Below, piece after piece: positions 20,330-52,380 of a stretch of 64,000 nt of DNA. The notes under the pieces were generated by a model. The model saw only the letters and a list, made by a program, of their open reading frames with translations, did no database searches and was not told the origin of the DNA. Position numbers and translations under genes: made by a program. The stretch's first letter is position 1, and every line of letters starts with the position of its first letter. Origin of the DNA: Hydrolagus affinis (taxonomy: Eukaryota); the NCBI GenBank assembly GCA_012026655.1, contig JAAILG010000212.1, positions 1-64,000 on the forward strand, in the 5' to 3' direction.

Positions 20330-52380
<32,051 letters not shown>

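What the first reader, a model, noticed from the sequence alone, without database searches (positions are those of the whole stretch)
22296..22310. Ca2+-binding DADLD motif of OGDHL is replaced by DANFD
Seen: codons GAT GCA AAC TTT GAC (D-A-N-F-D) directly after LDPLGIM. Established: in mammalian OGDH the DADLD motif at this position is the Ca2+ activation site of the complex, and as I recall mammalian OGDHL keeps DADLD. From memory, the Ca2+-insensitive alternative OGDH exon reads ...LDPLGISCVNFDD..., so it also has NFD here. Inference: this OGDHL may have lost or retuned Ca2+ activation genomically, converging on what mammals achieve by alternative splicing. That would be an uncharacterised way of regulating the TCA cycle in this lineage.
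Basis: partly seen in the sequence, partly recalled or inferred. Interest (0 to 1): 0.72.

Follow-up and report, generated by a model that had tools for sequence, protein, structure and literature searches.

The report
Chimaera OGDHL calcium site partly eroded
A chimaera's Krebs-cycle enzyme gene OGDHL carries Asn in place of the middle Asp of its calcium-site motif, and its sister gene OGDH lacks the first Asp, so calcium likely stimulates this enzyme more weakly in these fish, as part of a loosening of the site seen across sharks and rays rather than a new kind of regulation.

Summary
DANFD is real. It lies in coding exon 3 of an intact 22-exon, 1007-aa OGDHL, sister to Callorhinchus milii OGDHL, and independent sequencing runs show the same letters. 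It arose in two steps: L>F is shared with C. milii (DTDFD), and D>N is one later GAC>AAC change. The changed Asp equals human D156, a reported Ca2+-pocket residue; all 402 other exon-4b-type records examined keep it. The genome's only other E1o gene, OGDH, reads AADLD (4b) and LVDFD (4a), so no E1o form here has all three Asp. The site is loose throughout cartilaginous fishes (HADLD, YADLD, DADLE, DADQD; 27 of 73 records DADLD, against 171 of 171 tetrapod records). Holocephalan OGDHL also evolves fast overall. Attenuated Ca2+ activation in C. milii was already predicted in print from the missing DADLD. Best reading: relaxed constraint with a likely weakened Ca2+ site, not selected convergence on exon 4a (cartilaginous-fish 4a has no N, 0 of 22) and not a new regulatory mode. 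Asn may still bind Ca2+; nothing was assayed. The scan noted an insect OGDH exon pair before, not this variant.

The parts
20330..52380 (+). OGDHL coding region, 22 coding exons, 3024 nt, 1007 aa plus stop, all introns GT-AG
   Evidence: tblastn map; boundaries; no internal stop, 93% identity to C. milii OGDHL; tree
22251..22353 (+). Coding exon 3, homolog of OGDH exon 4b; single copy, no 4a-like twin found in either flanking intron
22296..22310 (+). Site-1 motif DANFD (aa 146-150; human OGDH D154-D158)
22302..22304 (+). AAC (Asn148, human D156 equivalent); organism D has GAC, one transition at 22302
22305..22307 (+). TTT (Phe149, Leu in other lineages); shared with C. milii, so older than the D>N change
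22263..22265 (+). His135 (human H143 equivalent), kept; its role as a Ca2+ ligand is recalled, not from a call
22314..22316 (+). Leu152 (human S160 equivalent); Phe in all 12 bony-vertebrate OGDHL rows aligned
26946..26960 (+). Site-2 motif ESDLD in coding exon 4, intact

Best explanation
[quoted passage not shown] Shown: the sequence, the order of the two changes (L>F shared with Callorhinchus, D>N later), AADLD in the OGDH paralog, and repeated changes at this site in sharks and rays. From papers: D156 is in the Ca2+ pocket of human OGDH, and Asp substitutions in the motif lower Ca2+ sensitivity. Inferred: removing one carboxylate lowers Ca2+ affinity, so the Ca2+-induced drop in Km for 2-oxoglutarate shrinks or needs more Ca2+; with OGDH 4a (LVDFD) and 4b (AADLD) also short of an Asp, the whole complex would be weakly Ca2+-responsive.
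For: Asn replaces the human D156 equivalent, named with D154, D158 and S160 as the Ca2+ pocket of 7WGR (PMC10827220 passage). All 402 other 4b-type records keep that Asp (after hand re-binning). Only two E1o genes were found in G000, plus DHTKD1-like hits; OGDH 4b is AADLD, as in 7 C. milii records. Cartilaginous-fish 4b-type records: 27 of 73 DADLD; tetrapods: 171 of 171. The 19-aa motif segment differs at 0-1 of 19 in 5 of 5 bony-vertebrate OGDHL pairs (rest of protein 12-19%) but at 4-6 of 19 in 5 of the 6 cartilaginous-fish pairs (rest 6-12%); window vs C. milii 5 of 19 against 6%, Fisher p 0.0055. Holocephalan OGDHL stem branch 0.21 against 0.053 for OGDH; 13 of 413 otherwise invariant columns changed against 0-7 in the non-holocephalan lineages tested.
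Against: No Ca2+ assay exists for this protein, and I found none for any OGDHL in the passages read. D>N is the mildest change at a Ca2+ ligand: Dx[DN]xDG is a common Ca2+-binding consensus (PMC9177970). D154, D158, the His and site 2 are kept. MCU, an MCU paralog, EMRE and two PDP1-like genes are present, so matrix Ca2+ signalling was not abandoned wholesale. The sixth cartilaginous pair, holocephalan OGDH, shows no segment excess (1 of 19, p 0.45), one shark pair is not significant (p 0.08), the segment was chosen after looking, and the pairs share branches. Bony-fish and tetrapod OGDH pairs differ at 3 of 19, so the strong contrast holds for OGDHL only. Teleost OGDHL also drifts at position 1 (EADLD, QADLD, VADLD, ASDLD, RADID), so the loosening is not confined to cartilaginous fishes. 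No dN/dS test was possible.
Confidence: 0.55

Rival explanations
1. Conservative substitution: Asn still coordinates Ca2+ through its side-chain oxygen, so DANFD OGDHL stays Ca2+-activated and the change is nearly neutral.
For: Dx[DN]xDG consensus; first and last Asp, His and site 2 kept; uniporter parts and PDP1-like genes present; D>N is a single transition in a fast-evolving protein.
Against: No other of 402 4b-type records tolerates any change at this position; N at this position marks the Ca2+-insensitive bony-vertebrate exon 4a (60 of 61 records); the site lacks the Gly6 and acidic residue 12 of EF-hand loops, so each carboxylate may count more.
Confidence: 0.23
2. Selected convergence: OGDHL was driven towards an exon-4a-like, Ca2+-insensitive loop, giving a hard-wired insensitive isoenzyme.
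For: NFD matches human 4a in register; two adjacent conserved columns changed; 5 amino-acid-changing against 3 silent differences from organism D in the exon, all 5 from motif position 2 onward.
Against: 4a also loses the first Asp and four residues, DANFD does not; F and N arose on different branches and C. milii still has three Asp; this genome already has a 4a exon, with D not N, so there is no template for gene conversion and no obvious need; other sharks reached unrelated variants, as drift predicts.
Confidence: 0.1
3. The motif in OGDHL is not a working Ca2+ switch in any species, so the change has no regulatory meaning.
For: All 12 bony-vertebrate OGDHL rows already have Phe at the S160 pocket position; OGDHL is partly redundant with OGDH in zebrafish and mouse (PMC10688095 passages); no direct assay of OGDHL Ca2+ activation appeared in the passages read.
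Against: The segment is more conserved than the rest of OGDHL from paddlefish to dog (0 of 19 against 17%), which points to a function.
Confidence: 0.11
4. Sequencing or assembly error, or a pseudogene.
For: The assembly is fragmented (245,464 contigs); no RNA holder was laid.
Against: Five runs of five studies give the same letters; the ORF is complete with canonical splice sites.
Confidence: 0.01

Closest known systems
Mammalian OGDH exon 4b, DADLD Ca2+ site 1 (D154-D158)
   Same: Same exon, register and flanks; D154, D158 and H143 equivalents kept.
   Different: D156>N, L157>F, S160>L; lies in the paralog OGDHL, as a single exon.
OGDH exon 4a (LS1), Ca2+-insensitive splice form
   Same: N-F-D at motif positions 3-5, as in bony-vertebrate 4a.
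   Different: Keeps the first Asp and the full 4b length; not alternatively chosen; cartilaginous-fish 4a has D, H or A there, never N (0 of 22).
Callorhinchus milii OGDH AADLD (PMC7969005, Discussion and supplement S8)
   Same: Same lineage, same site, same predicted outcome; the window's genome has AADLD in its OGDH too.
   Different: That prediction rests on the first Asp of the OGDH motif; DTDFD and DANFD occur 0 times in the paper's supplement text, and C. milii OGDHL keeps all three Asp.
Shark, ray and teleost site-1 variants (HADLD, YADLD, DADLE, DADQD, EADLD, VADLD, AADLE)
   Same: Independent erosion of the same motif in OGDHL or OGDH.
   Different: They change positions 1, 2, 4 or 5; DANFD alone changes position 3.

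Membership tests
OGDHL (vertebrate E1o paralog) | Groups with OGDHL, not OGDH, in a protein tree | tested here: met
   Sister to C. milii OGDHL (SH-aLRT 100) inside a 21-row cartilaginous-fish OGDHL clade (100); the 22 OGDH rows form their own clade (100); quick search, midpoint root
OGDHL (vertebrate E1o paralog) | Single exon-4 homolog, no 4a/4b pair | tested here: met
   One LDPL in the window; no 4a-like hit in either flanking intron (best E 0.018, 9 residues off the conserved part)
OGDHL (vertebrate E1o paralog) | Linked to CHAT and SLC18A3 (human gene order recalled) | tested here: met
   Choline/carnitine acyltransferase exon and a single-exon 541-aa MFS transporter downstream on the same contig; the names CHAT and SLC18A3 are my reading, Pfam gives only the families
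OGDHL (vertebrate E1o paralog) | Intact ORF with ThDP-binding GD..NN motif | tested here: met
   ([10 protein letters not shown]...VVNNQ)
Ca2+-activated E1o (site 1) | Three Asp, DxDxD | tested here: not met
   DxNxD
Ca2+-activated E1o (site 1) | Ca2+ lowers Km for 2-oxoglutarate | not testable with these tools
   Needs enzyme assay
Ca2+-insensitive exon-4a-type E1o | Loss of the first Asp and shorter loop (CVNFDDA) | tested here: not met
   First Asp and 4b length kept
Ca2+-insensitive exon-4a-type E1o | N-F-D at positions 3-5 | tested here: met
Ca2+-insensitive exon-4a-type E1o | Chosen by mutually exclusive splicing | tested here: not met
   No twin exon in the gene

The most novel reading that the evidence does not exclude
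Chimaeras of this lineage are vertebrates with a Ca2+-deaf 2-oxoglutarate dehydrogenase: every E1 form they can make (OGDH-4a LVDFD, OGDH-4b AADLD, OGDHL DANFD) lacks one of the three Ca2+-site carboxylates, while the uniporter and PDP1 remain. They would be a natural knock-out of the Ca2+-to-TCA-cycle link and the end point of a clade-wide decay of the site in cartilaginous fishes; among the 11 cartilaginous species with both paralogs in hand, this is the only one in which both have lost a carboxylate.
Probability: 0.3. Interest if true: 0.6.

Novelty: new variant of a known kind. Interest (0 to 1): 0.33.

Why it matters
Ca2+ activation of 2-oxoglutarate dehydrogenase is treated as a general vertebrate way to match ATP supply to muscle and nerve activity, and it has been tied to the evolution of endothermy (PMC7969005). 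DANFD is the only natural change at the central Asp among the 4b-type records seen here. With the shark and ray variants it gives a ready allelic series for asking what each Asp contributes and whether OGDHL is Ca2+-regulated at all. It completes, rather than overturns, a prediction already made for the elephant shark. The effect may be small, and OGDHL is the minor, partly redundant isoenzyme in the animals where it has been studied.

Tried and rejected
Sequencing error: rejected. Hidden DADLD or 4a-like twin exon in the gene: none found. A third E1o gene with intact DADLD in the genome: none among 44 scored of 55 candidates or 3 of 3; the assembly is fragmented, so absence is not proven. Gene conversion from the genome's own exon 4a: rejected, 4a reads LVDFD. 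Wholesale loss of matrix Ca2+ machinery: rejected for MCU, EMRE and PDP1-like genes; IDH3, MICU1/2 and GPD2 were not tested. Expression: no RNA holder listed. The OGDH AADLD codon was not checked against reads; both lay calls went to the OGDHL exon. The primary papers (Armstrong 2014, Denton 2016, McCormack and Denton 1981) are not held; I rely on their citation in PMC7969005 and PMC9177970. PMC11436768 and PMC10003691 had no passage on the Ca2+ site; PMC13311838, PMC7575740 and PMC7340257 gave only general statements. No structure or complex prediction was run: a model cannot settle Asp versus Asn affinity. No dN/dS: relatives were available as protein only. A stretch at 23953-24009 that matches an insert in one C. 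milii protein model is out of phase with exon 3 and was not taken as an exon. The script stopped on a bad coordinate and was finished by hand.

Full report
Observation. Window 22296-22310 reads GAT GCA AAC TTT GAC, D-A-N-F-D, directly after LDPLGIM. The exon runs 22251-22353 between AG and GT and aligns without gaps to human OGDH in PDB 7WGR and 8I0K, DANFD on DADLD. I laid 8 of the 14 listed runs, all as assembled contigs. X1, X4, X5 and X6 cover the motif with no other letter. X12 does too, at depth 2 and near the start of the laid piece. X11 does not cover it. X13 and X14 (organism D, one study) read DTDFD. X1 may be the source sample. X4/X6 and X5 carry intron differences and are labelled as organisms A and B. 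So the motif is real and shared among close relatives.

The gene. tblastn with homologs maps 22 coding exons from 20330 to 52380. With GT-AG boundaries they give 3024 nt and 1007 aa without an internal stop. Identity is 93% to Callorhinchus milii OGDHL, 77-80% to three shark and ray OGDHL, and 72-73% to three OGDH proteins. In a 55-row tree (quick IQ-TREE search, midpoint root) it is sister to C. milii OGDHL within cartilaginous-fish OGDHL, both at SH-aLRT 100. The window is therefore from a holocephalan (chimaera); I did not narrow this further. An acyltransferase exon and a single-exon MFS transporter lie downstream on the contig, which fits the CHAT/SLC18A3 neighbourhood that I recall for human OGDHL. 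No second, 4a-like exon lies in the flanking introns.

How the motif arose. C. milii OGDHL reads DTDFD, and organism D's exon translates to the same peptide. Leu>Phe is thus shared by both chimaera lineages, and Asp>Asn is one later transition, GAC to AAC at 22302. The exon differs from organism D at 8 codons, 5 amino-acid-changing and 3 silent.

What the residue is. In human numbering the motif is D154-A-D156-L-D158, with S160 after it. PMC10827220 (passages) names D154, D156, D158 and S160 as the Ca2+ pocket of 7WGR. PMC9177970 (passages) says that Asp substitutions in DADLD cost Ca2+ sensitivity, that the site resembles the start of an EF-hand loop without Gly6 or acidic residue 12, and that Dx[DN]xDG motifs are widespread Ca2+ sites. 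That H143 is also a ligand, and that D154A lowers sensitivity about six-fold, are recalled; the primary papers were not held.

Survey of relatives. 505 proteins came from three searches and three cluster look-ups. They are records, not species: isoforms repeat, they were ranked by likeness to my queries, large clusters were sampled at 15 members, and I assigned the groups by hand from source names. The script binned motifs as 4a or 4b. I moved 3 records from 4b to 4a (CVNFD, CINFD), moved 3 from 4a to 4b (two tetrapod DADLD; RADID), and dropped one junk match. After that, 402 of 402 4b-type records have Asp at position 3 and none has DANFD. DADLD is intact in 171 of 171 tetrapod records, 132 of 158 other bony-fish or unnamed records, and 27 of 73 cartilaginous-fish records. 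Shark and ray OGDHL shows HADLD (two Scyliorhinus species, Carcharodon, Cetorhinus), YADLD (Heterodontus), DADLE (Rhinoraja), and His>Thr at the H143 position in skates. Their OGDH 4b shows DADLE in most, DADQD in Heptranchias and DADLD in Rhincodon. Among 4a records, 60 of 61 from bony vertebrates or unnamed sources have N at position 3, and 0 of 22 from cartilaginous fishes do.

The paralog. The genome holds two E1o genes and DHTKD1-like pieces. OGDH has a 4a exon (LVDFD) and a 4b exon reading AADLD, as in C. milii. I did not check this codon against reads. So none of the three E1o forms here has three Asp. Eleven cartilaginous species have both paralogs in hand (this genome, Callorhinchus, Heptranchias, Carcharodon, Mustelus, Hemiscyllium, Chiloscyllium, Scyliorhinus torazame, Leucoraja, Amblyraja, Rhinoraja). 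None has DADLD in both, and only this genome has lost a carboxylate in both; DADLE keeps one as Glu.

Relaxed constraint. The holocephalan OGDHL stem is 0.21 changes per column, against 0.053 for holocephalan OGDH. Leaving each lineage out in turn, the window changes 13 of 413 otherwise invariant columns and C. milii 16 of 413; non-holocephalan lineages change 0-7, and holocephalan OGDH 2-4. The 19 residues from the motif to the exon end differ at 0-1 positions in 5 of 5 bony-vertebrate OGDHL pairs, below the rest of the protein (12-19%). They differ at 4-6 positions in 5 of 6 cartilaginous pairs, above the rest (6-12%); p is 0.0055 for window versus C. milii and 0.02-0.08 for the other four. 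Holocephalan OGDH shows 1 of 19 and two bony-vertebrate OGDH pairs 3 of 19, with no excess. The segment was chosen after looking and some pairs share branches, so this is supporting evidence, not a formal test.

Against a wholesale loss of Ca2+ signalling. MCU, a second MCU-family gene, EMRE and two PDP1-like genes are present. IDH3, MICU and GPD2 were not examined.

Mechanism. Shown: the sequence changes and their distribution. From papers: the role of the motif in human OGDH. Inferred: losing the D156 carboxylate lowers Ca2+ affinity, the Km shift shrinks, and since OGDH is also short of an Asp the complex as a whole would respond weakly. I put this at 0.55. Asn may keep binding Ca2+ (0.23). 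The OGDHL motif may not be a working switch anywhere, since bony-vertebrate OGDHL already has Phe at S160 (0.11). Selected convergence on 4a gets 0.10.

What is in print. PMC7969005 states that the first motif position is Ala in C. milii and that this species would be expected to show greatly attenuated activation. DTDFD and DANFD occur 0 times in its supplement text; alignments held as pictures were not visible. Nine library searches listed no paper on cartilaginous-fish OGDHL site variants or on assays of the chimaera enzyme; I did not run a library-wide search for DANFD itself. Subscription papers, including Armstrong 2014 and Denton 2016 and their alignments, were not visible and may already show some of these variants. 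PMC10688095 (passages) reports that OGDHL is partly redundant with OGDH. One earlier scan note concerned an insect OGDH exon pair; none concerned this genome's site.

Verdict. The reading as convergence on exon 4a, or as a new mode of regulation, is not supported. It is a new variant of a known site, most useful as part of a natural allelic series and as the piece that would leave chimaeras without any intact site. Interest 0.33.

Noticed in passing
L032:3957-4061 minus (G000:C44504): OGDH exon 4b of this genome reads AADLD, and its 4a twin (L032 about 4184-4285 minus) reads LVDFD; both as in C. milii.
   Followed up: yes
P0353, P0354, P0357, P0359, P0366, P0372, P0373, P0257, P0253: Most shark and ray OGDH 4b exons read DADLE, Heptranchias DADQD, Rhincodon DADLD; I saw no mention of this in the passages read.
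   Followed up: partly
P0213-P0226, P0227-P0233, P0140: Shark OGDHL lost the first Asp at least three times (HADLD twice, YADLD); skate OGDHL has Thr at the H143 position.
   Followed up: partly
P0474-P0485, P0119, P0035, P0121, P0305, P0307: Teleost variants: pipefish OGDHL VADLD and ASDLD, EADLD, QADLD, catfish RADID, and AADLE in one OGDH copy of two species.
   Followed up: no
window 35090-35092: His452 (CAT) replaces a Tyr found in all 54 other aligned rows, C. milii included, just after the ThDP-binding motif (RSSPHPTD); not checked against reads.
   Followed up: no
L035:1195-2895 minus and L036:1198-2808 minus: Two single-exon PDP1-like phosphatase genes, both close to PDP1 structures (869 and 777 bits); no PDP2-like ORF was identified among the loci read.
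   Followed up: partly
L048:5169-5528 minus and L050:7105-8727 minus (G000:C212 beyond the window): Choline/carnitine acyltransferase exon and a 541-aa MFS transporter, likely CHAT and SLC18A3.
   Followed up: partly
window 6111-6551 minus and 10460-12001 plus: Broken reverse-transcriptase (RVT_1) pieces of LINE-type repeats upstream of the gene.
   Followed up: no
window 23953-24009: Intronic stretch whose translation matches an insert in C. milii protein model P0010; out of phase with exon 3, probably conserved intron taken into that model.
   Followed up: partly
PMC7969005 supplement Figures S11 and S17: The Xenopus sequence labelled Ogdhl has a 4a/4b pair nearly identical to Ogdh, and the Felis row labelled isoform 4b matches OGDHL peptides; the labels may be crossed.
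   Followed up: no
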